64,000 nucleotides of DNA from a virus (Duplodnaviria; Caudoviricetes). The notes under the pieces are model-generated. The model was given only the letters and a program-made list of their open reading frames with translations. It made no database searches and was not told where the DNA came from. Where the stretch lies: the IMG/VR virus record IMGVR_UViG_2910903598_000004, positions 32,001 through 96,000 of that record, one strand, 5' to 3'. Each line of letters begins with the position of its first letter. The stretch's first letter is position 1. The position numbers and the translations under genes were made by a program. Positions 14,822 to 34,691 of this stretch are shown here, in pieces.

Positions 14822-14922
14822 AATTTTCTCCTTAATTAATATTTTCAATTTTTGTATGATTTTATAGAACAGCGTCCGTAATAAGCTATTTTTTAAGATA
14901 CTCTGCGGGAATTCTCGGCCAT

Positions 14923-15483: not shown

Positions 15484-15551
15484 TATAAGTAAACAAAAGA
15501 GACTTATCATCTAAGCCTCTTTTGCCCCACTGTAGAGTGAGCCTCCTTTCT
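15484..15551 (-). other. SD-two-hairpin-ATG element A (probable IscB/IS605 right-end remnant)
   Basis: AGAAAGGAGG CTCACT-CTAC-AGTGGG GCAAAAGAGGCTTA-GATGA-TAAGTCTCTTTTGT TTACTTATA ATG. Confidence 0.65.
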
Positions 15552-15563
15552 TATCAAAAATTT

Positions 15564-16376
15564 TCACATAATAACACATAATAAATATGCGATTGGATTT
15601 GTTTCTTTTAATTTTTCCCATGGAATCTTACATGCACGACATTTCGCATTACGAATCTTTTCCATAATTTCCGGAACAGAATCGTAAATAGATGCAATTT
15701 TAGGACAAAGTGCCGACTCACCAATCTTAATACTTCCATCTGGTGCAATAACTGGTGTACAAACCTTGCCATTAGATAAAAGTATATTGACCAAATCCTT
15801 CAATGTTGCTTCTGGTTTCTGCTTTGTAATCAAAATGCAATTGATACATTTAGGTGCAATCGTATTCCAATATTCATCGGAATAATTCTTCAAAGCACGT
15901 CCTTGTGGATACAAACAGTGAGATTTATTGTTTTTATCCGAAGGCACCGTATCAATAATAACTCCTAACTTAGATAACCAATATTTTTCATTATCTGTTA
16001 ATGGATCGGGATAAAATCTCGGATCATCTGTCACCTGGATCATAACATATCGTTTTCCACAGTGTTTCAAGAACTCTGAAACTGCATGATAAATTTTTTT
16101 GTTACGAACAAGTTCACGACCATTTGTTGCAAATGTGATTGGATACTTAATCGGTAATGTCTTCCAATATGATTCGATAAGTGACAGCATCTTCAAAATA
16201 TCTGGATGTTCAAACATTTCTCCACCTGAAAAACTCCACGTTGGAATCTGATTTTTGATCATAAATTTTAATACATCTTCAAATACTTCCAGTGTCATAT
16301 GTTCTCCATCCGGTTTGCAGTCTGATAAACAATGCGTACATCCCATTTTACAAGCATATGTAACTTCTACTAACAT
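15564..16376 (-). CDS. Radical SAM protein
   Basis: CKMGCTHC (CxxxCxxC), SGGE, ATNG; extra C-terminal cysteines. Confidence 0.88.
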   Translation of the reverse strand: MLVEVTYACKMGCTHCLSDCKPDGEHMTLEVFEDVLKFMIKNQIPTWSFSGGEMFEHPDILKMLSLIESYWKTLPIKYPITFATNGRELVRNKKIYHAVSEFLKHCGKRYVMIQVTDDPRFYPDPLTDNEKYWLSKLGVIIDTVPSDKNNKSHCLYPQGRALKNYSDEYWNTIAPKCINCILITKQKPEATLKDLVNILLSNGKVCTPVIAPDGSIKIGESALCPKIASIYDSVPEIMEKIRNAKCRACKIPWEKLKETNPIAYLLCVIM

Positions 16377-16434
16377 GATTTCTTTCTCCTTAATCTTCAA
16401 TTTAGCTTAGAGGCTTTAATCAATCACTAATCTT

Positions 16435-17253
16435 TTAAATTAATGGATCTTCTCCCTCTAACCACTGATGAAATTTTCCATTTTCTTCTTTGTATTTCTT
16501 CTGTTTCTCTTGATACCATCGTTTAGACAACTCGAAAATCAAATCTAAATAGCAGCGTTTGCTAGAAACATATTTTGAAGCAATCTTGCTTAATTCAGGA
16601 ATCACATAAAAATCAGCTTTTTTAAGGCAATCATAAAAAATCAATAATTCCTCATCTGTATAATCTTCAAAAAGATTTTTTTCCGGAGAAATCTTCTGTT
16701 GTTTTTCTTCTGCTGCCAGAAAAATATTCAAAGCATTTGTAATATCCTCTTGCATCTCTATATCGTCAAGAAAAAGAGCTTTTGATCTCGCTTTATTAAG
16801 CATTCCAAGTCCCTCTTTGATCAAAGTCTTAATTTCTTCACGTTCCTTTTCCATCCCATCTTTAGGATTTTCAATTTCAGGACCATAAACATTTTTGAAA
16901 AGTTCTGTATATCTTTGTATCTGATATTTCCAACTAGAACAATCAAATACAATGTAAAAATACTCTCCATAATCTTCTATCGAATCGTCTGTTCGAATTA
17001 ATTGGTTGTTTTGTGCAATTTCCAAAACTTTTTTCAAAATATTTGTTCTGATTCTAAAATATTTCTTTGGACCTAATTCCATTGGAATCTCATATTTTAC
17101 TAATATAATAACCTGATAAATATTGTCATATAGTCCGTTTAGATCAAATTCTACTTTTGTTATTCTACTAAGCCGTAAAAAATCTTTCTCTAGCTTTTGA
17201 CATTTATCAAGTATGTTGAATCTTTCTGCAATTTTTATTTCCTTTTCTTCCAT
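16435..17253 (-). CDS. Hypothetical protein
   Basis: 272 aa ORF, AAAGGAG RBS. Confidence 0.75.
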   Translation of the reverse strand: MEEKEIKIAERFNILDKCQKLEKDFLRLSRITKVEFDLNGLYDNIYQVIILVKYEIPMELGPKKYFRIRTNILKKVLEIAQNNQLIRTDDSIEDYGEYFYIVFDCSSWKYQIQRYTELFKNVYGPEIENPKDGMEKEREEIKTLIKEGLGMLNKARSKALFLDDIEMQEDITNALNIFLAAEEKQQKISPEKNLFEDYTDEELLIFYDCLKKADFYVIPELSKIASKYVSSKRCYLDLIFELSKRWYQEKQKKYKEENGKFHQWLEGEDPLI

Positions 17254-17271
17254 GTGTTTTTCTCCTTTAGT

Positions 17272-17308
17272 AAAAAAGCGGTATGAGATTTATACTCACA
17301 CCGCTTTT
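17272..17308 (-). terminator. Intrinsic terminator abutting the next RBS
   Basis: AAAAGCGGTGTGAG-loop-CTCATACCGCTTTTTT then ACTAAAGGAG. Confidence 0.75.
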
Positions 17309-17336
17309 AGTTATTTCTTAATATTCTTTCAAAATT

Positions 17337-18185
17337 CTAATTTTCTCCTGATTTTATAAGAAAATCAGTATGACAATCTGATTGAGCAATCACTGTACAA
17401 CCATGATTTGATAATATTTTGTTGATACGTTCATTTTCTGCATTTTCAACTTTTTCTTCTAATTCTTCATAATCAATTTCATCTTTATGACCTGGAATCT
17501 CAATATCCAGATCTTCTAAGATTTCATTCATTGCATCATAAATAGAAATATCCGGATTATCAAGCTGTCCTCCATCAATTTCTGAATAATCAGAAGTATA
17601 AAGTGTATAATCGTAACCATCTTCTGATTTCTGAATCATAAAATAGTTATCTCCAATTTTGCAGGCCAATGAATTTTTGCATGATATAGACTTATTCTTT
17701 ACATTTTTAATAGATTCCCATTGTCCTGACGATAAATTAAAATAAAACCGTTGTGAATCAATTTCATAATCATCATTTCTATCATAAAAATGAATGACCA
17801 TAGCACAGGCAGCATATAGATCTCCATTTTTCTCTCTTGGAAGATTATCAATAGAAAAATTAACGCTCCATATACGATCGTCTAATTTTAGAGTTGATAA
17901 CTTTTCTGCAGCCCGTTTCATCAAATAAGAAATATCTTCATTTTCAATCTTTTCAGTCATATGTATGAAATATAGCATATCATCTTCAAAAGTATAATCA
18001 TAATAATATCCATCACGCATATAAACCGTATAAATCTTCAAGTTTGATAAGTTATATTTTATAGCCTGTTCTCTTGCAAGATTTAAAACGTCTCTAGCCA
18101 TTACGGCTCCTTCTGTAATGAATAATTTTGCTCCTTCATCCGTTATTTCAATCTTCCAATTTTTAATAGTGTTCTTATTTTGCAT
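17337..18185 (-). CDS. Two-domain protein: N-domain shared with 25740..26462, LPD16-like C-domain
   Basis: C-terminal YF.IQ...DGYDYTLY...Y.EIDGGQLDNPDISI..A..EIL. Confidence 0.7.
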   Translation of the reverse strand: MQNKNTIKNWKIEITDEGAKLFITEGAVMARDVLNLAREQAIKYNLSNLKIYTVYMRDGYYYDYTFEDDMLYFIHMTEKIENEDISYLMKRAAEKLSTLKLDDRIWSVNFSIDNLPREKNGDLYAACAMVIHFYDRNDDYEIDSQRFYFNLSSGQWESIKNVKNKSISCKNSLACKIGDNYFMIQKSEDGYDYTLYTSDYSEIDGGQLDNPDISIYDAMNEILEDLDIEIPGHKDEIDYEELEEKVENAENERINKILSNHGCTVIAQSDCHTDFLIKSGEN

Positions 18186-18271
18186 TTTGTCCTCTTCCTT
18201 TCTAAAAAAAATCCAGTATATCCGACAATCTGTCTGAATATACTGGATCAATAATGATTCTAAGTTCTTTC

Positions 18272-18715
18272 TTAATTAAATGGGAGTTCATCCTCCAGTC
18301 CATCAGGGATGTTCATAAAACCATCACTTGCTGCCGTACTTGGCTGAGGTGTGCTTGGCTGTGAAGCTCCCCTATTATTGTTCTGGGATGCAGCTGCTTT
18401 GCTCTCTGCAAATTCCTGTTCTTCGATCACAACTTCTGTTGTGTAAACTTTCACACCCTCACGGTTTGTATAACTTCCTGTCTGGATTCTTCCGGAAACA
18501 GCAATCTTTGTACCCTGTTTGAAATACTTCTCTGCAAATTCTGCTGATTTTCCAAACGCTAAACAGTTAATAAAATCTGCACTCTGCTCACCATCTCTTT
18601 TGAATCGTCTGTCTACCGCTAATGTGTATCGTGCGATTGCCATAGGATTTTCTCCCTGTGAGTATCTTACATCTGGATCTCTTGTTAATCTTCCCATTAA
18701 AATTGCTTTATTCAT
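18272..18715 (-). CDS. ssb: Single-stranded DNA-binding protein
   Basis: MNKAILMGRLTRDP...ADFINC.AFG..AE...G..I.VSGRIQT; acidic tail DELPFN. Confidence 0.97.
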   Translation of the reverse strand: MNKAILMGRLTRDPDVRYSQGENPMAIARYTLAVDRRFKRDGEQSADFINCLAFGKSAEFAEKYFKQGTKIAVSGRIQTGSYTNREGVKVYTTEVVIEEQEFAESKAAASQNNNRGASQPSTPQPSTAASDGFMNIPDGLEDELPFN

Positions 18716-18763
18716 TGTTTCTTTCTCCTTTTCTTTATAACTAATTTTTTGACTTCTTTTTAG

Positions 18764-19327
18764 CTAATTTTTACTTAGCTCCTGATAAAACGGTACGCTC
18801 ATAAGTTCCGCACGTAATACATCATACATTTTATGTAAACGTGGGTTTACTAGACTCATCCATTTTTTTCGATCATCTTTTGCCATTGCTTCTCTCACCA
18901 TAGTTGCACTGATTGGTAAATCCTGTCTGTTAACGATTAATTCAGCTGTGTTTGCAAGATCTTTTTTGTCAAACCAACCGCTTCGGCTTTCATCGTTGCC
19001 ATAAATCATCAGCTCGGGATTCTTGTAGATGTATCTGTCTACATTGTTTAACAGATAACGTCCCCATTCAGGACAAATATCATTTTCGTCCGTCATGTCC
19101 GAAAGTGCATAGATCATAATCTCTGGCCGATCTCCATAAATCTCTCTTAGGATTTTGGTCCGTGTATTGATATTGAACGGATTACGTTCAGTTCCAGATT
19201 CCTGTGCAGAGCCGATTAGAATCAGTAATCGATCACACAGTAACAGACCAGTATCAACTAATTTTTCATGACCTTTATGGAAGGTCTGGAATCGTCCACA
19301 CACTAATCCTACGTCATAAGGTTTCAT
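18764..19327 (-). CDS. Nicotinamide-nucleotide adenylyltransferase (NadM/NMNAT-like cytidylyltransferase fold)
   Basis: GRFQ.FHKGH, IGSAQ.S....NPF...R, ISAT.VR. Confidence 0.85.
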   Translation of the reverse strand: MKPYDVGLVCGRFQTFHKGHEKLVDTGLLLCDRLLILIGSAQESGTERNPFNINTRTKILREIYGDRPEIMIYALSDMTDENDICPEWGRYLLNNVDRYIYKNPELMIYGNDESRSGWFDKKDLANTAELIVNRQDLPISATMVREAMAKDDRKKWMSLVNPRLHKMYDVLRAELMSVPFYQELSKN

Positions 19328-19407
19328 TCATAAATAAGCGAAATTTTTATTCCTACATTAATTGTTGAAAATAATTCCGCCCTCGCCATTTGGCGAGCCT
19401 CCTTTCT
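19328..19407 (-). other. SD-two-hairpin-ATG element B
   Basis: AGAAAGGAGG CTCGCC-AAAT-GGCGAG GGCGGAATT...AATTTCGCT TATTTATGA ATG. Confidence 0.65.
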
Positions 19408-19428
19408 AATATTTATAATATTTGTTAA

Positions 19429-19863
19429 CTACTCCACCCATTTTAACTGCTCTAAAAGATCTGTCACTGCTAAAATAGACTTCGTATAATAACTGTATCC
19501 ATCTACTTTACGATAAAGTTCATTTAATTTTCCAAAGCTTTCTTCATAATAAGCCATAGGATCATTATCATCTGCATTTTCTTTTACAATATTGTAAATT
19601 GGTCTGCAAACTTCATCATAGAAATCTCTATTTATATCCTTAACCTCTTTACAATAAAACATCATCATCTGTGTCATATTGCGTTTTAAGAATTCTTTAT
19701 TATACATCGCATTCTTATCAATTTCAGCATACATGATTGTCTGTAAGCGATTCCAGTAATTGATATCATGCTGCTCTGAATCCTTAATGTTTTCCATCGC
19801 AAAATATAACAATCTAAAATTTGTTTGAATGATGATTGTATTAGATTCTGCTGCCTGTGCCAT
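19429..19863 (-). CDS. Hypothetical protein
   Basis: AGAAAGGAG RBS before MAQAAES. Confidence 0.7.
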   Translation of the reverse strand: MAQAAESNTIIIQTNFRLLYFAMENIKDSEQHDINYWNRLQTIMYAEIDKNAMYNKEFLKRNMTQMMMFYCKEVKDINRDFYDEVCRPIYNIVKENADDNDPMAYYEESFGKLNELYRKVDGYSYYTKSILAVTDLLEQLKWVE

Positions 19864-19882
19864 AGTTATATTACTCCTTTCT

Positions 19883-20131
19883 TTATACAAATTTTATCTT
19901 TTGAACATGTGAAAATCGAAAGATTAAGAAATTCACACAATCCTGTGATTCTAAAGTTTCTGTCAAACAATAAAAACCTCTACGCAAATAAAGATCCGGA
20001 TTATTTCTAAATCTTTCAGCTCCAGTTTTTTGTAGGAATCCTGTTAAGATATCTCCATCAAATAACTCGATTTGAACTTTTTCCCCTAAATATTTCTGTT
20101 CGAATTCTGCTTTTCTCATAGCTTCCTCCAT
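19883..20131 (-). CDS. Small hypothetical protein (Sm/LSm-like pattern)
   Basis: YLG.KV.I.LFDG.IL.G.L...FR.SHV.KI. Confidence 0.65.
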   Translation of the reverse strand: MEEAMRKAEFEQKYLGEKVQIELFDGDILTGFLQKTGAERFRNNPDLYLRRGFYCLTETLESQDCVNFLIFRFSHVQKIKFV

Positions 20132-20136
20132 TAAAT

Positions 20137-20352
20137 TTAATCAATGATAATTGTAAAGCCATGTTTCTTTGTAGCTTCTTTATTAATTACAATTCGTTTT
20201 ACTTCTTCTCCTCCATGAAAACATTCCACTGATAACAGCTTGTCGATTTCTCCAGTAGCTGAATTATGAATGCCGATAGATTGTCCTTTGAAGACGCCAG
20301 AATCGTAATTCCATGCTTCGATCATGTCTTTATGATTTATTTTCTTCTTCAA
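20137..20352 (-). CDS. Small hypothetical protein
   Basis: 71 aa ORF, TTG start after GAGG. Confidence 0.55.
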   Translation of the reverse strand: MKKKINHKDMIEAWNYDSGVFKGQSIGIHNSATGEIDKLLSVECFHGGEEVKRIVINKEATKKHGFTIIID

Positions 20353-20401
20353 TTTACTTTTCCTTCTTTCTATCCTTGATTCATACGACTCCTTTCCAAA
20401 A

Positions 20402-21349
20402 TTAGAGTGGTTTGTATAAGCGGGTGTTGTTTAACCCGAAAATACGGTCCGTGAATGTTCCGTTGCTCTGATCTTCTAATGCATGTTCACATTGATACAT
20501 TTCCGCATCGATCATATCAATTCGATTTAACATGATAGCCTCCGGCAGCTGTGGAACTGTAATTGCTCCGTACTCCTGCTTGCCGTGATGAGATGCTAAT
20601 AAGTGTTTTAAAAGTAAAATCTTATCTTTATTCTCATCATTTTGAAGATCTAATTTATTGCAAGCTTCATCGATCATTTCACATCCAATCAGTAAATGTC
20701 CAAGCAAACTTCCTTCCGGAGTATAATCGGCATTTCCTGTAGGATCTGTATATAATTCTTTTAACTTTCCAACATCATGTAAGATAATGCCGGTTAACAA
20801 TAAACTGTGATTTAAGGCTTGCCCATACACTTTTCCAAGTGCAATTCCACTCTGAACCATACGGAATGTATGATACAAAAATCCAGATCGAATGTTATGA
20901 TGTACTGCTTTGGCAGCAGACCAGATAAAGATCTGTTCTTTGTACTTCTCATAAATATTATGAATGATAGCAAGATAAGCATCATCAAGTACTGTTTGAT
21001 CTGCAATCTGTAAGATATACTCATACATTTTTTGCGGACTGTAAGGTGCTGCATTAATGAAATCTTCCATTCTGTACTCAGATTCCAAAGCTTCTCTGTA
21101 CATATCCAGTGTAAAATCTTTCTGTCCGTTGTATTCTCCAACAGAAAATTCACCGATGATCACTGTATTCTTATCAAATGGAAATTCTTCAACTGACATA
21201 TTCCATAACTTGGCATCTACCTCTTTCTTCTGATCATCTCTTAACTTTAAGATCAAATAGGGTTTTGAAGTTCTGGTCTGTTTCTGTGTAACAGATACGA
21301 TCATCACTGGACCTGAAATCTTTCCTTGAATTGTTGCTTCTTTAAACAT
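20402..21349 (-). CDS. yhaM: YhaM/Cbf1-like OB-fold plus HD 3'-5' exoribonuclease
   Basis: YL.L.L.D...V.AKLW OB fold; AAK..HH...G.L.HT; LHDVGK..E; GH; SHHG..EYG...P...EA..L..ID.IDA. Confidence 0.88.
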   Translation of the reverse strand: MFKEATIQGKISGPVMIVSVTQKQTRTSKPYLILKLRDDQKKEVDAKLWNMSVEEFPFDKNTVIIGEFSVGEYNGQKDFTLDMYREALESEYRMEDFINAAPYSPQKMYEYILQIADQTVLDDAYLAIIHNIYEKYKEQIFIWSAAKAVHHNIRSGFLYHTFRMVQSGIALGKVYGQALNHSLLLTGIILHDVGKLKELYTDPTGNADYTPEGSLLGHLLIGCEMIDEACNKLDLQNDENKDKILLLKHLLASHHGKQEYGAITVPQLPEAIMLNRIDMIDAEMYQCEHALEDQSNGTFTDRIFGLNNTRLYKPL

Positions 21350-21409
21350 AAAAATCTCCTTTCGTAAATAAAAAAAACAGACTTTTTGTCTGTTTCAATG
21401 ATTTTTTTC

Positions 21410-21504
21410 TCATGACTTAAATATCGTAGGATCTATTTCTGAATCCTGAGTCTGGTGAACTATTTAACAGAAGCCACAGACCTTTACGCTCTGTGGTAGT
21501 TCAC
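21410..21504 (-). mobile_element. 5' fragment of an IscB/IsrB omegaRNA (HEARO-like) element left end
   Basis: GTGAACTACCACAGAGCGTAAAGGTCTGTGGCTTCTG..GTTCACCAGACTCAG..CTACGATA..GTCATGA; first hairpin nearly identical to 9428-9461. Confidence 0.7.
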
Positions 21505-21743
21505 TCTTCCTCTTCGCAATCCTCTTCATAATCAAAAGCCCAATCGCCATTGATTAGCACCTCCCATCCAGTTGCATGCCGTCCGTCGTGATCAAATGGC
21601 ATTTTTTCGACCACGTCAACGTCCTCGATCTTGAGGTTATTGTATTTTTTTTTCATTTCTTCAAGTTTATTTTTTCTTATTTCTTCCCATTTTTCAGTGC
21701 CATAAATTTCGGCACCGTAATAATAATATTCTCTATTTTTCAT
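21501..21743 (-). CDS. Small acidic hypothetical protein
   Basis: AAGGAGG RBS; stop TGA overlaps the IS remnant end. Confidence 0.7.
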   Translation of the reverse strand: MKNREYYYYGAEIYGTEKWEEIRKNKLEEMKKKYNNLKIEDVDVVEKMPFDHDGRHATGWEVLINGDWAFDYEEDCEEEE

Positions 21744-21754
21744 TTTGCCTCCTT

Positions 21755-21901
21755 ATAAAAAAGGGTATAAAAATAAACAGATACCATATATCTGCTTAAT
21801 TTATACCCATGATTGATAATTTTCTATTAACTTGATTCTTAAAAATGTTCAGAATTTTCCTATATTCTAAAGTCTGATAAAAATACAATTCTATTATATC
21901 A
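21755..21901 (-). promoter_or_regulatory. Repeated promoter/structured leader, copy 4 of 8
   Basis: TGATATAAT; GTATTTTTATCAGACTTTAGAAT-ATAGGAAA-ATTCTGAACATTTT; GGGTATAAA..GCAGATA..TATCTG..TTTATACCC plus T tract. Confidence 0.85.
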
Positions 21902-21923
21902 TGTTGTGATCAGTATCTCAATC

Positions 21924-22457
21924 CTAACATAGTGAAATTTTTTCTAATGCAAGAAACACCCATCGCTTAATCTCTGGATTTTCTGCAATGATATCCAATG
22001 CTCGATCATGATCAATTGCTCTACGATACACCCTGTCACTTATCAATGCATCATAAATATCAGCTGCCATTAAGATTTGAAAATATTCTTTTGCAAAATC
22101 GCTGATCTGTTCATCTGTCAGCGTACGATATTTGTGTGTACCATGATGCAGTAATATTAATTCACAAATATCTTTTTCAAACCCATATTCCATGCAAGCT
22201 TCATATCCATAGTATGCGTGCATATCAATGACTTTGCGTTCCAATCCTGTTAATGGTCTTGGTGCATTCAGAATCTTTTCTGGAATGTAGTATTTACCAA
22301 TATCATGATATTTTGCTGCAACCGTTAACATCTTTGTGTCGTATGCAGACAGCCTTAATTCTTCTGCCATTGCTTTCGTGTATTGTTCTACTCTGTCGCA
22401 ATGAATTTTTGTTTCTTTTGAAAAATATTCCTGTATTTTATATCTTGTCTTGATCAT
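21924..22457 (-). CDS. HD-domain phosphohydrolase (HD-GYP-like)
   Basis: HC.RV, HDIGK..IP..ILN....LT..E, H...G, HH, ADIYDAL.S.R.YR. Confidence 0.88.
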   Translation of the reverse strand: MIKTRYKIQEYFSKETKIHCDRVEQYTKAMAEELRLSAYDTKMLTVAAKYHDIGKYYIPEKILNAPRPLTGLERKVIDMHAYYGYEACMEYGFEKDICELILLHHGTHKYRTLTDEQISDFAKEYFQILMAADIYDALISDRVYRRAIDHDRALDIIAENPEIKRWVFLALEKISLC

Positions 22458-22867
22458 TTGTGTTCTTCCTCCCAATCTTTACCATACTTCTTTTTCAACT
22501 GTGGATTATCAAAAATATTTCCTACAACTATACAATCTTCCGGATCTTCTGCTTCTCCAAAAAAGTGATCATATACCCAGCCTTTTCTTTCAAGTGCCCA
22601 AGATGCATATTTTTTGTTCCAATGAACAATGGTATAGATATAATAGGATTTTATGATGTCGTTTTCAAAAATCGGCCTTCCATTCTTATCTCTTAGTCCT
22701 GTGCATTGACAGATGGTAGACTCATCTATTTGATGCGTTAGATTATCGCTTTCAAAGGGATGTTCAAAAATATAATGTTTTCCCATGAATACAAAGTAAG
22801 ATCCTTGCACCCATTCTCCATTGTCAATCCGTTTCGCTTTAAACAAAAATCTATTGTTAATTTCCAT
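22454..22867 (-). CDS. YopX-family protein
   Basis: FKAKR.DNGEWV.G; TICQCTGL.DKNG..IFE.DI; VVGNIFDNP. Confidence 0.88.
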   Translation of the reverse strand: MEINNRFLFKAKRIDNGEWVQGSYFVFMGKHYIFEHPFESDNLTHQIDESTICQCTGLRDKNGRPIFENDIIKSYYIYTIVHWNKKYASWALERKGWVYDHFFGEAEDPEDCIVVGNIFDNPQLKKKYGKDWEEEHK

Positions 22868-22882
22868 AAAGATACTCTCCTT

Positions 22883-23230: not shown

Positions 23231-23290
23231 TTGATTTTCCTTTCTTTTTAACGATACAGGACAAGGGAGTTTCCCTGTCCTGCATAACAA

Positions 23291-23728: not shown

Positions 23729-23746
23729 GATTTTTCTCCTTTTTTT

Positions 23747-24205: not shown

Positions 24206-24219
24206 GATTTTCTCCTTTT

Positions 24220-25158: not shown

Positions 25159-25178
25159 TGAATTTCCTCCATCATATT

Positions 25179-25481
25179 TTATGATTCCATTACATCTCTA
25201 ATTTCATCAAATGGACGTGCCTCATATTCAATATGGTATGTATCAAAAGAAGCATACGCATGAAACACCATAAAATCTTCTGTAATAGGTTCTTCGTATC
25301 TTCCAAGTTCATTAACGCTATTTGTACACTCATGACATATTTCTTGCGATAATTCTTTGTCCTCTTCAATTAACGATAAAAGATAACTCTTAATCTCTTC
25401 TTCTGTTGCAGCGAGCCGTTCAATAGAGAACTGACCGCTGCCATCATTCCACACTACTACTAACCATTCTTTTTTTGCCAT
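25179..25481 (-). CDS. Hypothetical protein
   Basis: AGGAGG RBS, 100 aa. Confidence 0.7.
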   Translation of the reverse strand: MAKKEWLVVVWNDGSGQFSIERLAATEEEIKSYLLSLIEEDKELSQEICHECTNSVNELGRYEEPITEDFMVFHAYASFDTYHIEYEARPFDEIRDVMES

Positions 25482-25564
25482 TCTTCTTTCCTCCTAATTT
25501 CAAAAGAACTATCACACTATTGCCATGCTTTTGATGACATCGGCACCGTATGATAGTTCAATTC

Positions 25565-25747
25565 TCATTTTTTTATTTCACAGGCAATATCACTTCTACT
25601 TCCACGAACAGAAAAACCTTCTGTATCATGTTTCAGAAGAATAGCCATAATCTGTTTTTCTTCTTCCTCGCTCAAAGAGAATCCTTCCCAATAAGAAAAA
25701 TCATCTTCTCCGAATCTGGTAATGATTCCAAAAATGTTCTCACTCAT
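25565..25747 (-). CDS. Small hypothetical protein
   Basis: AGGAGG RBS before MSENIF. Confidence 0.6.
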   Translation of the reverse strand: MSENIFGIITRFGEDDFSYWEGFSLSEEEEKQIMAILLKHDTEGFSVRGSRSDIACEIKK

Positions 25748-26462
25748 TTTCTTTCCTCCTGATTTTAATCTTAAAACCATCATGACAAAAACCATATTTG
25801 TTTGTCAGAGCGTCTGAAACATCATCCAGAAAATCCTCATTATAATCTAAATCATCGTCAGGATCATATTTAGAAAAATTAATGTTAAGAACTGAAGCAT
25901 AAATTTCATCAGGTAATCCTGCCATCACTCTAACATCATCCGGTGTAGACCAATTGATGTTTGTGATCATGATATCTTTCCATGATCTTTGCTTCTTTTT
26001 TTTCTTTACCCATTTTAATTCCATAAGATCGAATTGGTACAATTCACTAGGTCGTTCTGTTTCCTCATCTATATCGAGAAAATCAATGCACAGTAGGCAA
26101 TCTGCAAAATTACCTTGTCGTTTTGGCACATCAAATACAAAATCGATGCCATACAATTGATCAACATATCCTGATTCATGGATCAAATCTTCTGCTTTTT
26201 TTAAAAAATATGAAAAATTCGAATCTGTGACTTTCTTAAATGGCTTTATTGGCAAATTATCATTTTTATATTTTGTATCTTCTTTTAAAGTATAATCAAA
26301 ATATTTATTACCATTTTCATGGTAAACCGGTAATTTGTTAAGATGATATTTGATTACAAGATGTCTTGCGAGACTCAGAATATCATTATTCATCGCAGCT
26401 CCATCTTGAATAATCAGCTTTGTCTCATTTTCTGTAATTTCTAATTTCCAATTTTTAATCAT
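25740..26462 (-). CDS. Two-domain hypothetical protein, N-domain paralogous to 17337..18185
   Basis: IKNWKLEITE...L.I..GA.M..D.L.LAR...IKY.L..L..Y. Confidence 0.75.
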   Translation of the reverse strand: MIKNWKLEITENETKLIIQDGAAMNNDILSLARHLVIKYHLNKLPVYHENGNKYFDYTLKEDTKYKNDNLPIKPFKKVTDSNFSYFLKKAEDLIHESGYVDQLYGIDFVFDVPKRQGNFADCLLCIDFLDIDEETERPSELYQFDLMELKWVKKKKKQRSWKDIMITNINWSTPDDVRVMAGLPDEIYASVLNINFSKYDPDDDLDYNEDFLDDVSDALTNKYGFCHDGFKIKIRRKENE

Positions 26463-26475
26463 AATTTCTTTCTCC

Positions 26476-26805
26476 TTATATGCAAATCATATGAATAATA
26501 TCACTTTCTGGTATAGGCATTTCACGTTCATGGTGATCTAAATCTCTTTGACCAAATTCATCAATGAAATCATCCTCAACCGCTGATCTCTTTGGTTTGT
26601 GATCATACTCGAAGATATAATCATCATCAATAAGATCATCATTATCGTTGACTCTTTGAACTTTTGCGTAGAATGTAGGGAATTCTTCATTTTCTTCTGC
26701 TTTTCCAATTACATACTTTACTTTTTCCGCTTTCCATTCCGTCTTCCATTCATCAAGCTTGATGCACTTATACCCATCAATTTTAATTTGCTTTTCATTT
26801 TTCAT
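26476..26805 (-). CDS. Hypothetical protein
   Basis: RBS before MKNEKQ. Confidence 0.65.
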   Translation of the reverse strand: MKNEKQIKIDGYKCIKLDEWKTEWKAEKVKYVIGKAEENEEFPTFYAKVQRVNDNDDLIDDDYIFEYDHKPKRSAVEDDFIDEFGQRDLDHHEREMPIPESDIIHMICI

Positions 26806-26819
26806 AATGTATTCCTTCC

Positions 26820-27299
26820 TTACCAATAATTTTGTCGTTTGACAATATCCTTGCAAATCATGCTTGCCAGAAAATCGTCATTTTCACATAACTCTTTCAA
26901 ATTTTCTCTTATATCATCATAAGATTTTGAAAATTCTTCGTAAGCATAGTCAATTATTTCTAATCGCTTTTCTAATGATTTGATAAACCTTTTTGTGCTT
27001 TCGATTTCTTCTGATACTTTTTGCTTAATTTCTTCCAAAGTATTTGGATTATCCTTATTACCACAATCAATATAATTTCTAAAATATTGATTTTTGGTAA
27101 ATTTTGTATCAACTTCAAGAATGTATCCTCGAAAAGATTCTTTCCTTTTATATGTTGCATTGGTGAAATTTTTTGACATGCTTTTAAAAGGGGTTCCATC
27201 TTTTTTCGTTAAATATGTGACATTTTCCCATGCTTCCAGTCTTGCTTTATTTTCTTCAATATAATCTTTCAAATCTCTTTTAATACTATTCAAACTCAT
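26820..27299 (-). CDS. Hypothetical protein
   Basis: 159 aa, AWE.V...TKKDG.PFK.MSKNF motif. Confidence 0.75.
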   Translation of the reverse strand: MSLNSIKRDLKDYIEENKARLEAWENVTYLTKKDGTPFKSMSKNFTNATYKRKESFRGYILEVDTKFTKNQYFRNYIDCGNKDNPNTLEEIKQKVSEEIESTKRFIKSLEKRLEIIDYAYEEFSKSYDDIRENLKELCENDDFLASMICKDIVKRQNYW

Positions 27300-27429
27300 A
27301 TTTATTGCCTGCCTTTCCTATGATTTTTTAATTTCAGTACGATAAAATTCTTTGATATATAAAAAGTACAAAAACAAATAATAATTTTTCATCTGTTTTT
27401 GTACCATATTAATATAATATATATCAAAA

Positions 27430-27669
27430 TTAAGCAGTTACAATCTGCCAAACATGAACCTCTTCTCCATTAATATAGAGAATAGCTTCTTCATTATCGC
27501 AGTGTGATGATTTCATCCATTCCGGATCAATACCGTTTGAAAACATTTCTTGATACTCAATCTTTCGTTCATATTCAAAATTAAGTTGCTTACAGGCTTC
27601 TTCTTTGGTGTTATATTTTCCAACAACATCAATAGAACATCCGTCTGTATGAATTAATAAAACTTTCAT
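27430..27669 (-). CDS. Small hypothetical protein
   Basis: AAAGGAG RBS, 79 aa. Confidence 0.65.
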   Translation of the reverse strand: MKVLLIHTDGCSIDVVGKYNTKEEACKQLNFEYERKIEYQEMFSNGIDPEWMKSSHCDNEEAILYINGEEVHVWQIVTA

Positions 27670-27902
27670 TAATTCATCTCCTTTCCTGATGAATTTACAT
27701 ATTCTTTATAAAATTTCATCAATTCATCTTCTGGCATCTGTTCAAGAGTTTCTTCAACTTTTGCATATAAATCCTCTTGATCATCATCTGGGCGATTCTC
27801 ACCAAAAAAATCAAAATAAACATAGTCACTGTTCATGCACTCCTGAATCATAGTGCATTTCAGGCTAATTAACATTTTATCAGTGAATTTTAATTTACAC
27901 AT
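27669..27902 (-). CDS. Small hypothetical protein
   Basis: AGAAAGGAGG RBS before MCKLKF. Confidence 0.7.
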   Translation of the reverse strand: MCKLKFTDKMLISLKCTMIQECMNSDYVYFDFFGENRPDDDQEDLYAKVEETLEQMPEDELMKFYKEYVNSSGKEMN

Positions 27903-27925
27903 TTTGTATTTCCTCCTTTCTTTTG

Positions 27926-28091
27926 TAAAAATAAAAATGGACATAAAAAGAAGCAGATACAAAATATCTACTTAAATTTATGCCCAAATGATTGGTTATG
28001 AAATTTCTATTGATTTTTTATCCTAAAAAAAGTTCAGAGTTTTTCCGTTAAAACTCCAAAGTCTAATAAAAAATACATTAGTATTATATCA
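27926..28091 (-). promoter_or_regulatory. Repeated promoter/structured leader, copy 5 of 8
   Basis: TGATATAAT; TATTAGACTTTGGAGTTTT-AACGGA-AAAACTCTGAACTTTTT; terminal GGGCATAAA..TTTATGTCC hairpin. Confidence 0.88.
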
Positions 28092-28221
28092 TATTCAGAA
28101 AAAATTATAAAGATTTTGTCGCAAAAAAAAAGAAGCAGACACATAAAATATGTATCTGCTCCAAAAATTAATTTCTAGCTATTCTCATTCAAGACAAAAT
28201 CTTCTCCATATAATGGTGGCA

Positions 28222-29109
28222 TTACTTTCGAGTTAGAATATAACATTCATCATTTGAATTTTTTATTATTCCAGTTTCAACATTGTATTTTTCATGTTCT
28301 GCTATTCTCATTATATCAACAAAATCAAGATTGCATATTAATGCTTTCCTTTTAGAAATACAAAATTCATTTGCTTTTATTGAGTAAATTCCTAATACAT
28401 TTGCAATCTTTCTTAAATCACTGCCATCCATGGAATCAGTTAATTTAATATATGGAACACCAGAAGCATCATAATATAAACTATTGAAAATTTTCATATG
28501 ATGAAATATATCTCCAATACTACAACCTACGTGATATATTTCTTCGCAAGAATACTGATCGATCAATTCGACATCATTACATTTTGAGTATTGATCATAT
28601 AATAATTTAACCATATATCCCTCATTTAACAATTCCATTACTATATGGTGGAATGGATAATTTGAAGAAATTGAATTATGCTGACTTTTTATCCAGTTCT
28701 CGATCACTGCTTTGGGAGCATCTGTTTTAAAAATGATAGATTCTTTCTCATCATTGCCAGAATCTGAAAGATATACTTGAATAGCTCTTGGTTCTGCTTT
28801 CAAAATATTTTCTTCCATCACTTTTTTGCTTTCTACTAGATAATCTTCAAATTTTTCATCTGTAATTAAATAAAATAATGATTCAAAATCGTCCTTATTT
28901 TCTACTTCAAGATACAATTTTAATATATCATCAGAAATTCCACTAACTTGAAAGTCTGCTGCTTCCATAATATCTGCTAAAATCGTATCTGCATCATGAA
29001 TCATCCCATCTGGCTGTTTTGTCGATAAATCCAAAACCTGTTCTGCTAATTCCTTTACCGTTCCTTCAAAGTCTGTAGGCTCTTTAATGTTTCCTAATTC
29101 TTTTCTCAT
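28222..29109 (-). CDS. Hypothetical multi-domain protein
   Basis: 295 aa, AAAGGAG RBS. Confidence 0.75.
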   Translation of the reverse strand: MRKELGNIKEPTDFEGTVKELAEQVLDLSTKQPDGMIHDADTILADIMEAADFQVSGISDDILKLYLEVENKDDFESLFYLITDEKFEDYLVESKKVMEENILKAEPRAIQVYLSDSGNDEKESIIFKTDAPKAVIENWIKSQHNSISSNYPFHHIVMELLNEGYMVKLLYDQYSKCNDVELIDQYSCEEIYHVGCSIGDIFHHMKIFNSLYYDASGVPYIKLTDSMDGSDLRKIANVLGIYSIKANEFCISKRKALICNLDFVDIMRIAEHEKYNVETGIIKNSNDECYILTRK

Positions 29110-29128
29110 GATTTTTCTCCTTTTTTAT

Positions 29129-29177
29129 AAAATTCTCAGCTGCGTATCCACATACCTTTAGGTGGTGGGTAGTTCAT
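29129..29177 (-). mobile_element. Minimal IS200/IS605 (IscB-type) end-fusion remnant (~49 bp)
   Basis: ATGAACTACCCACCACCTAAAGGTATGTGGATACGCAGCTGAGAATTTT followed by ATAAA; begins like the left ends at 9461 and 21504. Confidence 0.55.
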
Positions 29178-29185
29178 AAAATTTG

Positions 29186-30649
29186 TTACAGTTCTTTGAT
29201 TGAGATTCTTGGAATCCAGTCTTCTTCTACCGCTTTAATCTTGTCCTTTGGGACACAAGACAGTAAAGCTGAATCTTTCGCTAATGCCATGTCAATGATC
29301 CAAAAATCTTCTCCATTCTGCATCACATCAATGGACCACTGCCCTCTTAAATCTAAAAATGGTAACAGTTTCATGATCTCTCTTTGAACTTTCTCTTTGT
29401 TCTTCTCGTATCGTTCCATTAATGTTTTCTCATGTGCTGCATAGATCACATAGTCATGCACCATATCTGGATTATTTGCATCCGCTTCTTTTCCAAATCG
29501 CTTTTTCATGACATCCGGATCCCAGTATGGATTGATCCCTAACACTTCTTTTGTATCTGCATCAATAAATACACGATATTCTGTATGTAGTGGTAATCCT
29601 TTGTAGATACATGGATTGTTTTCTTTATCCTTAATGAATTCTCTAACGACCCACTCATTTGTTGTTGCTGCACCATATATACTTGGCTGGTTTCTTCCAG
29701 AAAGATCATAGTGTGCAAAACAACTTGCCTGAAAACTGATGAATAGTAAATATTCTCCGATCTCTTTGACTTCTTTTGCGTCATGAATATAAGCATTCCG
29801 AAAATCAAATTTAGAAGAAAAAACACCAGTTTTGATAAAGTATTCTTTCGTTTCGTCTAATTCAAAAGCTTTCTGGCAAAATTGATCAATGATCTGAAAA
29901 GTCGTAGATGACAATTCTGTATATTCCATTCAACTCATTTGTAATACCGGCAATGGAACTTTCATGATCTTTGTCTTTGGCAGCTGAAAGAAATCAGAAT
30001 AAAAAATCGCATTTACTAATCGTGGAAACCAGTTTCCTATGGAATTCTGACAACGATCTAAAATTGCATAGCTGATTCCATCCAGATCTAACATATCTAA
30101 TCCCTGACGAAAATGGTCATAAAGAAACCTTTTTTTTCGTGGATCTTTTGTATTCAGATACTGCTGATATTGCTCTAACAATGCATCTCCCGTACCATCA
30201 GAAAGACTTTTTTTAACATATCGTCCAGTCAGATCAGGTCTTAACTCTTTTGGCAGCTCATTGATTTCTTCAAGTGTTACTTCTGAGTTTTCTGGAACTT
30301 TAACTGTTCTCGTTTGATTGCAAGAATAGATATTTCCATATGTAAATCCTGGTTTTCCGTCATATTCATAAATGAGGGCTTGATCTAAAAGCTCATTCAC
30401 GATCCGGTCAATCAAATCTTGAACTTTTCCTTTCCCATGTACATCCTGTTTTGGATTTAAACTTGCAGCCTGCTTTGCATTGACTTTGAAAAGGTTGTCG
30501 CTGATCGGCTCATTCATGGAATGTAGCTGATAGGATTTTTCAAATGCCTTTAAGGCTTCTGGTGTAACCCTTAACATTTCTGCGAGTTTTTCTTTGGACA
30601 TAATTGCTTTTTTCATATCTTTATTAAAAATATTTGATAAATCTAACAT
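29186..30649 (-). pseudogene. ATP-grasp-like protein interrupted by an in-frame TGA at 29930-29932
   Basis: ...VPLPVLQMS*MEYTEL... same frame, no RBS for the second half; FIKTG..S.KF, WVVREFI, EYRVF, WSIDVM..G..FW.IDM. Confidence 0.7.
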
Positions 30650-30662
30650 AAATTTTCTCCTT

Positions 30663-31667
30663 TTATTTTTCAAATCTGATTTCCATAGCTTTTGCTAATG
30701 CATAGCCAAACTCCTGATTTGCACCTGGACTTGTTTCCCATCCTTTTAACATGTAAATGATGTCACAATCCTTTAACAACTGAAAAGATAATCTCATGTA
30801 ATCTTCATAAGAAGCGTTTTCTAATTTTGTCCCTTCATATGCAGGATTTACAACTTCATATCCTTGTGCCAAAAGTTCTCTCGCTGCTACATCAAATCGT
30901 TCCTGATAATCTTCTGTTTTTGTAATCTTTCCAGAGATATAGACTTTCCGGTTCTTCTTGCTAAAATCAACCGTATGTAAAATATCAAACAGTTTTTTTA
31001 TTTCTGGACTGCAATCTGTAAATAAATCCATTGGAGACGTTTCAATTAGCTTTACATCCTTATCATACTTATCCGCGTATTTTTGCAGATAACGTACGCC
31101 ATCTTTGTAAGTTAAGAAAAAGATCCCTGGACGCTGATATAATTCTTTTATGTAATATCTTAATTCTGCATGATGATATGTATATCCCATAACCCATTCT
31201 ACAATTGCAAGCAATCCATTCTTTTGGATTTTTTCTAATGATCCTTCCCATAACATAGTTTTGCCTATATCGTTTTTTCCATGAATCAAGACCTTATAAT
31301 TGTTAATCAACTCTACCTGATACTTTTCTTCGAGTGAATTATCCTTAATAATACTCTGAATCGTTTGATATAATTGCTGCGGAGTTGTTATATTGATACA
31401 ATCAATACATAAATCTGCTCCATCAGCAATCTGATTTAGATATTCTACTGCATCCGGATCATTTCTAAGATCAGTCTCAACATTGTCGAGATAATTTTTG
31501 ATTGGTTCTTGAATAACCCAGATACGTGGATAAGTCAGCATGTCGGAATGTTGGGTATTCATTTCTTTCTGCAGTTCATACAAAAAATCCAATTCTTCAT
31601 CTGTGATACGATGCTTTGCATATGGATCAGTATGATGTGGATATTGTGTAAATTCTTTCTTTAACAT
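30663..31667 (-). CDS. Hypothetical N-domain fused to DUF4406 (nucleoside deoxyribosyltransferase-like) C-domain
   Basis: KVYISGKIT....Y.ERF..A...L...GY.VVNP...YM......L..CD.IYML.GWE.S.GA..E..YA. Confidence 0.8.
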   Translation of the reverse strand: MLKKEFTQYPHHTDPYAKHRITDEELDFLYELQKEMNTQHSDMLTYPRIWVIQEPIKNYLDNVETDLRNDPDAVEYLNQIADGADLCIDCINITTPQQLYQTIQSIIKDNSLEEKYQVELINNYKVLIHGKNDIGKTMLWEGSLEKIQKNGLLAIVEWVMGYTYHHAELRYYIKELYQRPGIFFLTYKDGVRYLQKYADKYDKDVKLIETSPMDLFTDCSPEIKKLFDILHTVDFSKKNRKVYISGKITKTEDYQERFDVAARELLAQGYEVVNPAYEGTKLENASYEDYMRLSFQLLKDCDIIYMLKGWETSPGANQEFGYALAKAMEIRFEK

Positions 31668-31681
31668 AATTTTTTCTCCTT

Positions 31682-31948
31682 TTAAAATTCTTGAGATGGT
31701 TTAGTCTGATATGGATTTGCTGCTTTTGCTCTTTCCTTTATAATTTTAGAAAGAGTCGTATCATCAATATTTCCATACTGACTTATATCTCTTGCGATCA
31801 TTAAGTCACTCTTAATTTCGTGATATAAATTGTCTCCATCGTACTTGTCTCTAGCATAATATAATACATTGCAAAGTTTGACTAATTCATCAGAACTTAG
31901 AGTAACTGTTACTTCTCTGTCATTTTTTGATATATTTTGAATATTCAT
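31682..31948 (-). CDS. Hypothetical protein
   Basis: 88 aa; SD displaced by element C. Confidence 0.7.
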   Translation of the reverse strand: MNIQNISKNDREVTVTLSSDELVKLCNVLYYARDKYDGDNLYHEIKSDLMIARDISQYGNIDDTTLSKIIKERAKAANPYQTKPSQEF

Positions 31949-32024
31949 TGTAAATAAGCAAAAATCCCCAAACCTCTAAGGTCGGGGATAAATTTGCTCT
32001 CGCTATTAAGCGAGCCTCCTTTCT
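31949..32024 (-). other. SD-two-hairpin-ATG element C with a typical IS200/IS605 end hairpin
   Basis: AGAAAGGAGG CTCGCT-TAAT-AGCGAG AGCAAATTTATCCCCGACCTTAGAGGTTTGGGGATTTTTGCT TATTTACA ATGAA. Confidence 0.7.
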
Positions 32025-32050
32025 ATAAAATGTAATTTTTACTGTCAATC

Positions 32051-34624: not shown

Positions 34625-34691
34625 AATTTTTCTCCTTTCCTTTTCTGTTGCAATTCTTTTAGTTTTATCAATTTTTTTCTCCTTTCTTTTG

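What the first reader, a model, noticed from the sequence alone, without database searches (positions are those of the whole stretch)
15484..32024. Three 'split RBS' elements: perfect SD separated from the ATG by two tandem hairpins (58, 70 and 66 nt)
Seen at 15484-15551 (XRE regulator), 19328-19407 (NMNAT) and 31949-32024: AGAAAGGAGG, then hairpin 1 with covariation (CTCACT/AGTGGG, CTCGCC/GGCGAG, CTCGCT/AGCGAG), directly followed by a variable hairpin 2, then TAYTTAY(G)A and ATG. None of the three genes has another SD near its start; with both hairpins folded, the unpaired SD-ATG distance falls to ~8-10 nt. Established: hairpin-bridged SD-AUG spacing is described for phage T4 genes 25 and 38. 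Hairpin 2 of copy C is a typical IS200/IS605 end, and the SD reads GAA AGG AGG CTC GCT TAA (ERRLA*), like an IscB C-terminus. Inference: these are domesticated transposon right ends acting as structure-dependent translation initiation regions. In copy B a 21-codon uORF (MARAELF...IYE*) overlapping the NMNAT ATG offers translational coupling as an alternative.
Basis: partly seen in the sequence, partly recalled or inferred. Interest (0 to 1): 0.78.

Follow-up and report, generated by a model that had tools for sequence, protein, structure and literature searches.

The report
IscB transposon relics splitting phage RBSs
The three "SD, two hairpins, ATG" units are leftover ends of IscB (IS200/IS605-type) transposons that insert directly in front of ATGAA start codons of phage genes, so the relic's own SD-like codons and hairpins now form the gene's ribosome-binding region.

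Summary
All three units lie on the minus strand of a 120-kb gut phage record, and there are two more copies: D outside the window and E at 9187-9461.

Their origin is settled. Sister phages carry intact IscB elements whose gene ends ...TERRLA* (GAAAGGAGACTCGCCTGA). This is followed by the same two hairpins and TTATTTACG tail, directly abutting ATGAA.

ATGAA is the complement of TTCAT, the TAM published for a Geobacillus IscB element. That explains why the relics sit exactly between SD and start codon. By TnpA convention this end is the transposon left end, not the right end.

Empty alleles exist. Five sister phages lack D. More than 70 loci with NMNAT homologues, and one homologue of the 88-aa gene, have a normal SD 6-10 nt before the same ATGAA start.

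The NMNAT gene behind copy B stays under strong purifying selection (pN/pS 0.04). Copy B is also better conserved than neighbouring third codon positions.

How translation works is inferred, not shown:
- In B and D (and in a variant form in A), a relic mini-ORF starts 8-11 nt after the SD and stops in an ATGA overlap. In B and D that ATG is the gene's start; in A it is an upstream in-frame ATG. This is classic translational coupling.
- Only C needs a hairpin-bridged SD.

The parts
15484..15551 (-). Copy A, in front of the XRE/HTH gene (14923-15483). It is an IscB-element end relic made of SD-like iscB codons AGAAAGGAGG, H1 (CTCACT/AGTGGG), H2 (14-bp stem) and a 9-nt tail. The flank is ATGAG. 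A GTG 11 nt after GGAGG opens a 7-codon ORF whose TGA overlaps ATG 15510, which is in frame with XRE.
19328..19407 (-). Copy B, in front of the NMNAT-like gene (18764-19327). It has the same layout as A. The relic 21-codon mini-ORF runs 19389-19324, starting at an ATG in the H1 loop 8 nt after GGAGG. Its stop is the TGA of the NMNAT ATGA.
   Evidence: (empty alleles)
31949..32082 (-). Copy C, in front of the 88-aa gene (31682-31948). SD-like codons, H1, H2 and an 8-nt tail occupy 31949-32024. About 58 nt of further iscB 3' coding remnant (DNKSSVSCKKLRL.. against VNKGSISYKKLRL..) reaches into the end of ORF 32051-32362. The H1 loop has ATA instead of ATG and the frame is off, so there is no coupling ORF.
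   Evidence: (homologue with normal SD)
9187..9461 (-). Copy E, a 275-nt mini IscB element of a related subfamily. In order it holds the omegaRNA start GTCAATAACC (9461), an omegaRNA 3' piece, the iscB tail ..EKVNKGSLSYKKIQFFETPRGYLTEQRKEMA*, an end hairpin, and a tail with CAAAGG 10 nt before ATGAAA (9186). The native SD AGAAAGGATGG lies upstream, at about 9473-9483.
14891..14928 (-). A 38-nt piece identical to the iscB-distal end of a third IscB family (470-aa IscB, L040). It is cut in the middle of the hairpin and lies at the XRE stop / next-gene junction.
21410..21504 (-). A 95-nt 5' fragment of a HEARO/omegaRNA (GTGAACTACC...), 94% identical to the omegaRNA in sister record G001 (L032). 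No iscB follows it.
27324..27331 (-). Empty target site of a second IscB family (424-aa IscB). The site is occupied in sister G003 (L039). The full/empty pair is precise; the flank on the iscB strand is TTAAA.

Best explanation
The units are relics of IS200/IS605-family IscB elements. Each keeps the last codons of iscB (E-R-R-L-A, GAAAGGAGG CTC GCx) and the iscB-distal transposon end. That end has two subterminal hairpins and an 8-11 nt tail, and is the left end in TnpA terms.

**Why they sit before the ATG.** This element family integrates, or homes, directly 5' of ATGAA on the iscB strand. ATGAA is the complement of the TAM TTCAT, and it is also the commonest way a gene starts (Met-Lys/Asn) in this AT-rich phage. 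Surviving insertions therefore lie exactly between a gene's SD and its ATG, co-oriented with the gene. Later deletions removed the omegaRNA and nearly all of iscB. Copies A-C are solo ends; D and E are mini-elements that still keep omegaRNA pieces.

**How the gene is translated (inferred).** The displaced native SD is functionally replaced by the relic's perfect SD-like codons.
- In B and D, ribosomes most likely start at the ATG in the H1 loop, 8 nt after GGAGG. They translate a 21-codon relic ORF, the old IscB C-terminal frame, through H2. They stop on the TGA of the gene's ATGA and re-initiate there. This is translational coupling.
- A has a variant: a 7-codon GTG ORF that ends in an ATGA at an in-frame upstream ATG.
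- C has no such ORF. There the contiguous, probably coaxially stacked H1 and H2 would have to bring the SD to about 8 nt from the AUG. That is a two-hairpin version of the T4 gene 25/38 split RBS.

**Confidence by step.** Origin and insertion logic about 0.95. The relic SD being what drives downstream translation about 0.6. Coupling as the main route in B and D about 0.5. A hairpin-bridged SD operating in C about 0.35. The overall figure of 0.6 is for the statement as a whole.
For: **Shown**
1. Intact family-1 IscB in sister phages ends ...GAAAGGAGACTCGCCTGA, then H1, H2 and TTATTTACG|ATGAA. It aligns with A-D over the full length.
2. D is preceded by a HEARO-like remnant that matches the intact element's omegaRNA 5' and 3' parts. 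Five sister phages have the empty site ...GAAAGGAAATTAATTACG|ATGAAAAATG.
3. More than 70 loci with NMNAT homologues have a canonical SD 6-10 nt before ATGAAACC, and the homologue of the 88-aa gene has TAGGAGTGAAAAA|ATGAATAT.
4. Most of 71 distinct family-1 IscB 3' ends from other gut phages also end directly at ATGA(A), often the start of an ORF of at least 45 codons. GstIscB has TAM TTCAT next to the left end.
5. NMNAT pN/pS is 0.04 between two haplotypes that both carry copy B.
6. Copy B has 2 differences in 80 nt, against 11% and 22% at third codon positions of the two flanking genes. Both differences preserve pairing.
7. The phage is SD-dependent: 90 of 111 genes against 18 of 234 internal ATGs.
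8. The mini-ORF keeps 21 codons and its ATGA stop in B, D and the intact element, despite indels (read from the sequence).

**Inferred**
- Use of the relic SD.
- Translational coupling.
- Hairpin bridging.
Against: - No expression or translation data exist for any copy.
- C lacks a mini-ORF and A has only a short one, so no single mechanism covers all copies.
- H1 (dG down to -10 kcal/mol) would have to melt for initiation at the loop ATG.
- A two-hairpin bridge of 58-70 nt has no experimental precedent; T4 bridges 22-27 nt with one hairpin.
- Hairpin covariation is expected from TnpA recognition of the ssDNA end while the elements were active, so it does not prove an RNA-level role.
- The conservation test rests on one pair of haplotypes, and recent recombination could mimic it.
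- The ERR codons are part of a conserved protein motif, L[TI]E[RK]R, so their SD likeness may be incidental.
- No TnpA or IscB gene lies in this 120-kb record.
Confidence: 0.6

Rival explanations
1. The relics are inert scars. The downstream genes are translated without help from the relic SD. Possible routes are SD-independent initiation on the unstructured A/U-rich tail and start, or ribosomes scanning on from the upstream cistron. Alternatively the genes are simply expressed poorly, and the phage tolerates it.
For: - The tails and first codons are very A/U-rich and mostly predicted unpaired.
- Other IscB debris in the window has arbitrary break points (14891-14928 and 21410-21504).
- The 5' limits of the relics differ between copies.
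- Some intact relatives (e.g. L053, L071) have neither a mini-ORF nor a tail SD before the flanking ATG.
Against: - About 81% of this phage's genes use an SD at 3-13 nt.
- NMNAT is under strong purifying selection after the insertion.
- Copy B is more conserved than neighbouring third codon positions.
- All five family-1-type relics kept the SD-like codons and both hairpins while losing about 1.3 kb of iscB.
Confidence: 0.25
2. A pure hairpin-bridged (split) RBS works in all copies. H1 and H2 fold, the SD lands 8-11 nt from the AUG, and the mini-ORFs are irrelevant.
For: - The SD abuts H1, H1 abuts H2, and the tails are 8-11 nt in A-D.
- Pairing is maintained, with compensatory changes.
- The SD is predicted unpaired in A-C.
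- There is a single-hairpin precedent in T4 genes 38 and 25 (PMC3014915).
- C has no alternative route.
Against: - This geometry is inherited from the transposon end, so it needs no selection to explain it.
- In B and D a start codon sits at ideal spacing (8 nt) from the SD and opens an ORF that ends on the gene's ATGA. Ribosomes loading there would unfold both hairpins.
- No two-hairpin bridge of this length is known.
Confidence: 0.25
3. The units are still mobile, non-autonomous PATE/MITE-like IS605 elements rather than fixed relics.
For: - D (about 206-216 nt) and E (275 nt) keep both transposon ends.
- D is present in this record only and absent from five sister phages.
- PATEs related to IscB/TnpB elements are described (Meers et al.).
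Against: - A-C lack the omegaRNA/right-end side entirely, so TnpA cannot mobilise them.
- A-C sit at the same sites in all six related records.
- No TnpA gene lies in this record.
Confidence: 0.1
4. The units are a dedicated cis-regulatory RNA (riboswitch or protein operator) or an intrinsic terminator/attenuator, unrelated to transposons.
For: - The structure is conserved upstream of several genes.
- H2 of A and C is followed by a U-rich stretch.
Against: - Rfam finds no family at gathering score.
- The whole unit aligns with an IscB gene end.
- No minus-strand terminator is called at A, B or C.
- The downstream genes are unrelated in function.
Confidence: 0.03

Closest known systems
IS200/IS605-family IscB elements (ISC / HEARO elements), e.g. 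ISGst5 of Geobacillus stearothermophilus (Meers et al. 2023, bioRxiv 10.1101/2023.03.14.532601)
   Same: - The HEARO-type omegaRNA lies upstream of iscB.
- The subterminal palindromic end lies next to the TAM.
- TAM TTCAT is the complement of the ATGAA found at the relics.
- Insertion is co-oriented with the upstream gene.
- Most copies lack tnpA.
   Different: - Copies A-C have lost the omegaRNA and iscB; only about 70-135 nt of the TAM-side end remain.
- They sit in a phage.
- The insertion point coincides with the start codon of phage genes. The papers I read do not mention this consequence of the TAM.
PATEs / MITE-like non-autonomous IS200/IS605 derivatives
   Same: D and E keep both ends with internal deletions and no ORF, like the PATEs related to ISGst1/5.
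   Different: - A-C are one-ended and therefore not transposable.
- All copies retain iscB terminal codons that read as a strong SD.
Split RBS of phage T4 genes 38 and 25 (Nivinskas 1999; Malys and Nivinskas 2009; reviewed in PMC3014915)
   Same: The SD lies far from the AUG, with intervening structure that restores a functional spacing. No other SD is present.
   Different: - T4 uses one hairpin and 22-27 nt. Here there are two contiguous hairpins and 58-70 nt.
- Here the structure is a transposon end.
- Function is untested here.
Translational coupling through overlapping stop/start (ATGA)
   Same: - In B, D and the intact element, a short ORF with a perfect SD ends on the TGA of the gene's ATGA.
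- In a large clade of related IscB elements the iscB stop itself is that TGA.
   Different: - The coupling ORF is a relic of the IscB C-terminal frame running through a transposon-end hairpin.
- It is absent in C.

Membership tests
IS605-family IscB element (relic) | Sequence homology to the 3' end of an iscB gene | tested here: met
   A-D align with the end of an intact 416-aa IscB (..TERRLA*). tblastn finds D, E and C tails, with E value 3e-6 for E. C extends 58 nt further into iscB.
IS605-family IscB element (relic) | Subterminal palindromic transposon end homologous to that of intact elements | tested here: met
   H2 (GCRAATTYATCCCC...GGGGxATCCTTYGC) and the tail are shared with L037, L053 and L125. 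96% of cells pair.
IS605-family IscB element (relic) | Transposon-adjacent motif at the boundary (TTCAT for the characterised GstIscB) | tested here: met
   The flank on the iscB strand is ATGAA in B, C, D, E and intact L037. A has ATGAG.
IS605-family IscB element (relic) | Presence/absence polymorphism with a clean empty site | tested here: met
   D has an empty site in five sister records. For B and C, homologous genes have a normal SD directly before the same ATGAA. Family 2 gives a precise full/empty pair. A could not be tested; its only distant homologue is uninformative.
IS605-family IscB element (relic) | HEARO/omegaRNA and an iscB ORF (RRXRR, HNH) within the element | tested here: not met
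   A-C have neither. D has a 31-bit HEARO remnant, below the gathering score of 83, and E has omegaRNA pieces. There is no RRXRR hit in this record. Intact copies occur only in sister records. The copies are therefore relics, not elements.
Split (hairpin-bridged) RBS, T4 gene 25/38 type | SD more than 15 nt from the AUG, no other SD, and intervening stable structure that restores a 5-11 nt spacing | tested here: met
   Distances are 58, 70 and 66 nt. Tails are 9, 9 and 8 nt after H1 and H2.
Split (hairpin-bridged) RBS, T4 gene 25/38 type | The structure is required for efficient initiation (mutational or probing evidence) | not testable with these tools
   Only indirect evidence is available: NMNAT pN/pS 0.04 and conservation of copy B.
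Translational coupling cassette | An upstream ORF with its own SD and start, whose stop overlaps the downstream start | tested here: inconclusive
   Met by sequence in B (19389-19324), D and intact L037. A has a variant (GTG, 7 codons, ATGA at 15510). It is absent in C (ATA, frame off). Translation of the ORF was not tested.

The most novel reading that the evidence does not exclude
IscB/IS605 elements with TAM TTCAT are adapted to colonise the SD-to-ATG gap of genes. ATGAA holds a start codon and an overlapping stop codon. The element's TAM-side end carries an outward translational relay, which takes one of four forms:
- the iscB stop, or a relic mini-ORF stop, falling on that TGA;
- an SD in the tail;
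- SD-like terminal codons held next to the AUG by two stacked end hairpins.

Insertion would then not silence the target gene. After iscB decays, the end persists as the gene's permanent ribosome-binding region. In copy C this would be the longest natural hairpin-bridged SD-AUG spacing (66 nt, two hairpins).
Probability: 0.3. Interest if true: 0.8.

Novelty: new variant of a known kind. Interest (0 to 1): 0.6.

Why it matters
- **An odd anatomy with a concrete cause.** The perfect SD 58-70 nt from the ATG is explained by TAM-directed IscB insertion at ATGAA start codons.
- **Real gene structures, not annotation errors.** Gut phages carry many such relics.
- **Possible built-in tolerance.** If the relay or bridging works, selfish RNA-guided transposons can sit inside the ribosome-binding site of useful genes without killing them. 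Their ends are then recruited as translation signals. That bears on how IscB elements persist in compact phage genomes, on gene calling and RBS models for phages, and on the limits of SD-AUG spacing.
- **Test material.** The work also yields natural full, mini, solo and empty alleles for experiments.

Tried and rejected
- **Rfam.** No family matched at gathering score over the window. In the E-value search of the loci around copies A-D, only the sub-threshold HEARO hit next to D was meaningful.
- **Riboswitch or operator idea.** Dropped once the IscB homology was found.
- **Terminator idea.** No minus-strand terminator is called at A, B or C.
- **Phage database (INPHARED) search.** It returned only SSB-gene matches, with no annotated relative.
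- **Exact-pattern scan for SD+H1.** It found only near-identical sister phages plus GC-rich chance hits.
- **Scan for more solo ends** (TATCCTTCGC...ATGAA).
- **Empty allele for copy A.** The only distant XRE homologue has a different N-terminus.
- **Conservation tests for A and C.** The sisters are nearly identical in the flanks, so there is no power.
- **Arg codon choice in the ERR motif.** AGG is over-represented, but the sequences are phylogenetically dependent, so this is not used as evidence.
- **Microhomology deletion.** I considered that the solo ends arose by deletion between the native SD (AGAAAGGA at the D and E left flanks) and the SD-like iscB codons. This is possible for A and B. 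It cannot be general, because C, D and E keep more iscB sequence.
- **MFE folds of longer mRNA contexts.** These gave copy-specific alternative pairings of little diagnostic value.

Full report
**What is there**

The window is bases 32001-96000 of a 119,963-bp IMG/VR phage record. Its weak DNA matches in a phage database are mostly human-gut phage records. Almost all genes lie on the minus strand (106 of 111 called), and so do the three units.

Read on that strand, each unit runs in this order:
- AGAAAGGAGG;
- a 16-nt hairpin, H1;
- directly after it a 33-45-nt hairpin, H2;
- an 8-9-nt A/T-rich tail;
- the ATG of an HTH/XRE gene (A), a cytidylyltransferase-like NMNAT gene (B) or an 88-aa ORF (C).

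The 15-mer AGAAAGGAGGCTCRC occurs three times in the window, against none in 100 shuffles. GGAGG-to-ATG distances are 58, 70 and 66 nt. The hairpins fold as described. A fourth copy, D, lies outside the window in front of a Prok-JAB gene. nhmmer finds no further close copy in the record.

**Origin**

An E-value Rfam search gave one meaningful hit. It is a 31-bit HEARO (IscB omegaRNA) match immediately upstream of D, below the gathering score.

This record has no IscB (RRXRR) or Y1 transposase gene. Five very close sister records share copies A-C. They also hold intact elements: HEARO above the gathering score in four of the five, followed by 416-470-aa IscB ORFs of three families.

The family-1 gene ends ...SYLTERRLA*, which is ...ACAGAAAGGAGACTCGCCTGA. 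Its stop lies in the H1 loop. It is followed by TGGCGAG, H2 and TTATTTACG, and then ATGAA. Copies A-D align with this end over their whole length.

D is an internally deleted mini-element. In order it holds the omegaRNA 5' part, the omegaRNA 3' part, the last ~15 iscB codons and the end.

One correction applies. Meers et al. place the omegaRNA at the transposon right end, so this TAM-side end is the left end.

**Why the relics touch the ATG**

In every family-1 case the base after the element is the A of ATGA:
- ATGAAG/ATGAAA for the intact copy;
- ATGAAA for D;
- ATGAAT for C;
- ATGAAA for B;
- ATGAAA for E;
- ATGAG for A.

ATGAA is the complement of TTCAT. That is the TAM shown experimentally for GstIscB and its TnpA, located 5' of the left end.

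I collected 80 family-1 IscB homologues (61-100% identity) from other gut-phage contigs. Among their 71 distinct 3' ends, most elements again stop directly at ATGA(A). This is often the first codon of an ORF of at least 45 codons.

Full/empty comparisons confirm insertion:
- Five sisters lack D and read ...TAGAAAGGAAATTAATTACG|ATGAAAAATG, a normal SD 11 nt before the JAB start.
- More than 70 loci with NMNAT homologues, at 95% identity or less, have a canonical SD 6-10 nt before ATGAAACC.
- The one distant homologue of the 88-aa gene has TAGGAGTGAAAAA|ATGAATAT.
- A second IscB family gives a base-precise full/empty pair at window 27324-27331, with flank TTAAA.

The coding strand has 568 ATGAA sites, of which only about 22 are called gene starts. 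Yet all five family-1-type relics sit at starts. That fits purging of insertions inside ORFs and tolerance of insertions in the SD-ATG gap.

**More debris**

- tblastn with the intact IscB found copy E (window 9187-9461). It has the omegaRNA start GTCAATAACC, an omegaRNA 3' piece, the iscB tail ..YLTEQRKEMA*, one end hairpin, and a tail with CAAAGG 10 nt before ATGAAA. The sisters lack E and its downstream gene.
- A 38-nt half-hairpin of a third family's end lies at 14891-14928.
- A 95-nt omegaRNA 5' fragment lies at 21410-21504.
- C retains about 58 nt more iscB coding sequence. The 5' limits of the relics therefore differ. What all five keep is the SD-like codons plus the hairpins.

**Does the relic serve translation?**

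Direct data are absent. No RNA run holding the sequence is listed. The indirect evidence is as follows.
- The phage relies on SDs: 90 of 111 genes have one at 3-13 nt, against 18 of 234 internal ATGs. None of A-C has one near the ATG.
- Two haplotypes that both carry copy B differ in NMNAT by 22.5 synonymous and 3.5 non-synonymous changes, giving pN/pS 0.04. This is as low as among element-free homologues, so the gene has stayed functional since the insertion.
- Between the same haplotypes copy B has 2 differences in 80 nt. Third codon positions differ by 11% in NMNAT and 22% in the upstream ORF. Both differences turn G-U into Watson-Crick pairs.
- The relic SD is very strong, at -15.4 kcal/mol against a Firmicute-type anti-SD. 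It is predicted unpaired in A-C.

**Two routes**

- *Coupling.* In B, D and the intact element an ATG in the H1 loop lies 8 nt after GGAGG. In D and the intact element it overlaps the iscB stop as TGATG. It opens a 21-codon ORF, which is the former IscB C-terminal frame through H2 (..ANSSP..GVS.., still read by IscB in relatives). That ORF stops on the TGA of the gene's ATGA. Indels between the three copies compensate, so length and frame are kept. In a large related clade the iscB stop itself is that TGA. A has a 7-codon GTG ORF ending in ATGA at ATG 15510, in frame with XRE. This is ordinary translational coupling and would unfold the hairpins.
- *Bridging.* C has ATA in the loop and the frame is off. 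Only the folded H1+H2, contiguous and thus stackable with the SD strand and tail meeting at the nick, can place GGAGG 8 nt from the AUG. T4 genes 38 (22 to 5 nt) and 25 (27 to 11 nt) are single-hairpin precedents.

The hairpin covariation is strong: 96% of cells pair, 9 of 16 pairs change on both sides, and 0 of 500 shuffles reach this. It is also what TnpA recognition of the end would produce, so it does not separate the two routes.

**Verdict**

- The transposon origin is established.
- The position before the ATG is a consequence of the TAM.
- Reuse of the relic SD is likely but unproven. Coupling is favoured in B and D. A two-hairpin split RBS is needed only for C.
- This is a new variant of known things: IscB relics, translational coupling and the split RBS. 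The papers I read do not mention the link between TAM TTCAT and start codons.
- The scan's other first-stage notes on this genome (e1-5865231, e1-5865240) reached a similar reading. I checked their main claims here.

Noticed in passing
L072-L124 (IMG/VR gut-phage loci), iscB 3' ends: A large clade of family-1 IscB genes ends ..LTEKRMQVNL* with ...GTAAATTT|ATGAA. The end hairpin H2 seems to be deleted and the iscB stop is the TGA of the flanking ATGA. These elements still occur at many different sites. That raises the question of how they move without the TnpA hairpin; IscB-guided homing is one possibility.
   Followed up: partly
G000:C1:29850-30110 (just upstream of the window) versus L037: At the site of the intact family-1 IscB in sisters G002 and G004, this record has about 175 nt of ORF 3' end instead. 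That stretch is bounded by ATGAAG and ATGAAAGG. The element-bearing allele therefore lacks this stretch, which suggests a deletion between two TAM-like sites.
   Followed up: partly
L001 / G000:C1:15420-16070 versus sisters: The left flank of mini-element D (Prok-E2_D gene) is only 86% identical to the sisters, while the right flank (JAB gene) is 99% identical. This may be co-conversion from a divergent donor during homing, or a recombination boundary at the element.
   Followed up: no
window 2717-2809, 9476-9549, 21740-21832, 27909-28145, 34675-34911, 42569-42661, 56207-56281: A repeated intergenic module of about 90-240 nt, with a CAGA(T/C)...TCTG hairpin and A/T-rich flanks. It looks like promoter/leader/terminator units, is unrelated to the IscB relics, and occurs many times in the sister genomes.
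   Followed up: no
window 10599-12495: Degenerate 9-21-nt periodic repeats (GTTGTnGTnGTTGG...) lie on the plus strand inside the 815-aa minus-strand ORF 9704-12151, which encodes Thr/Pro/Lys-rich TTTAKPTTT linkers of an amidase-like protein.
   Followed up: no
window 15557-15580: A 10-nt tandem duplication (TTATTATGTG) just upstream of copy A, within the 3' end of the radical-SAM ORF 15564-16400, is present in this record and absent from the sisters.
   Followed up: no
The phage DNA is held at 87-100% of sampled words by 3-5 Mb isolate assemblies of one coded organism, and by mouse-gut, bioreactor and clothing metagenomes. Two sister records are classed as proviruses. The phage is therefore probably a prophage, or resident in a cultured bacterium, which would make experiments feasible.
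   Followed up: no
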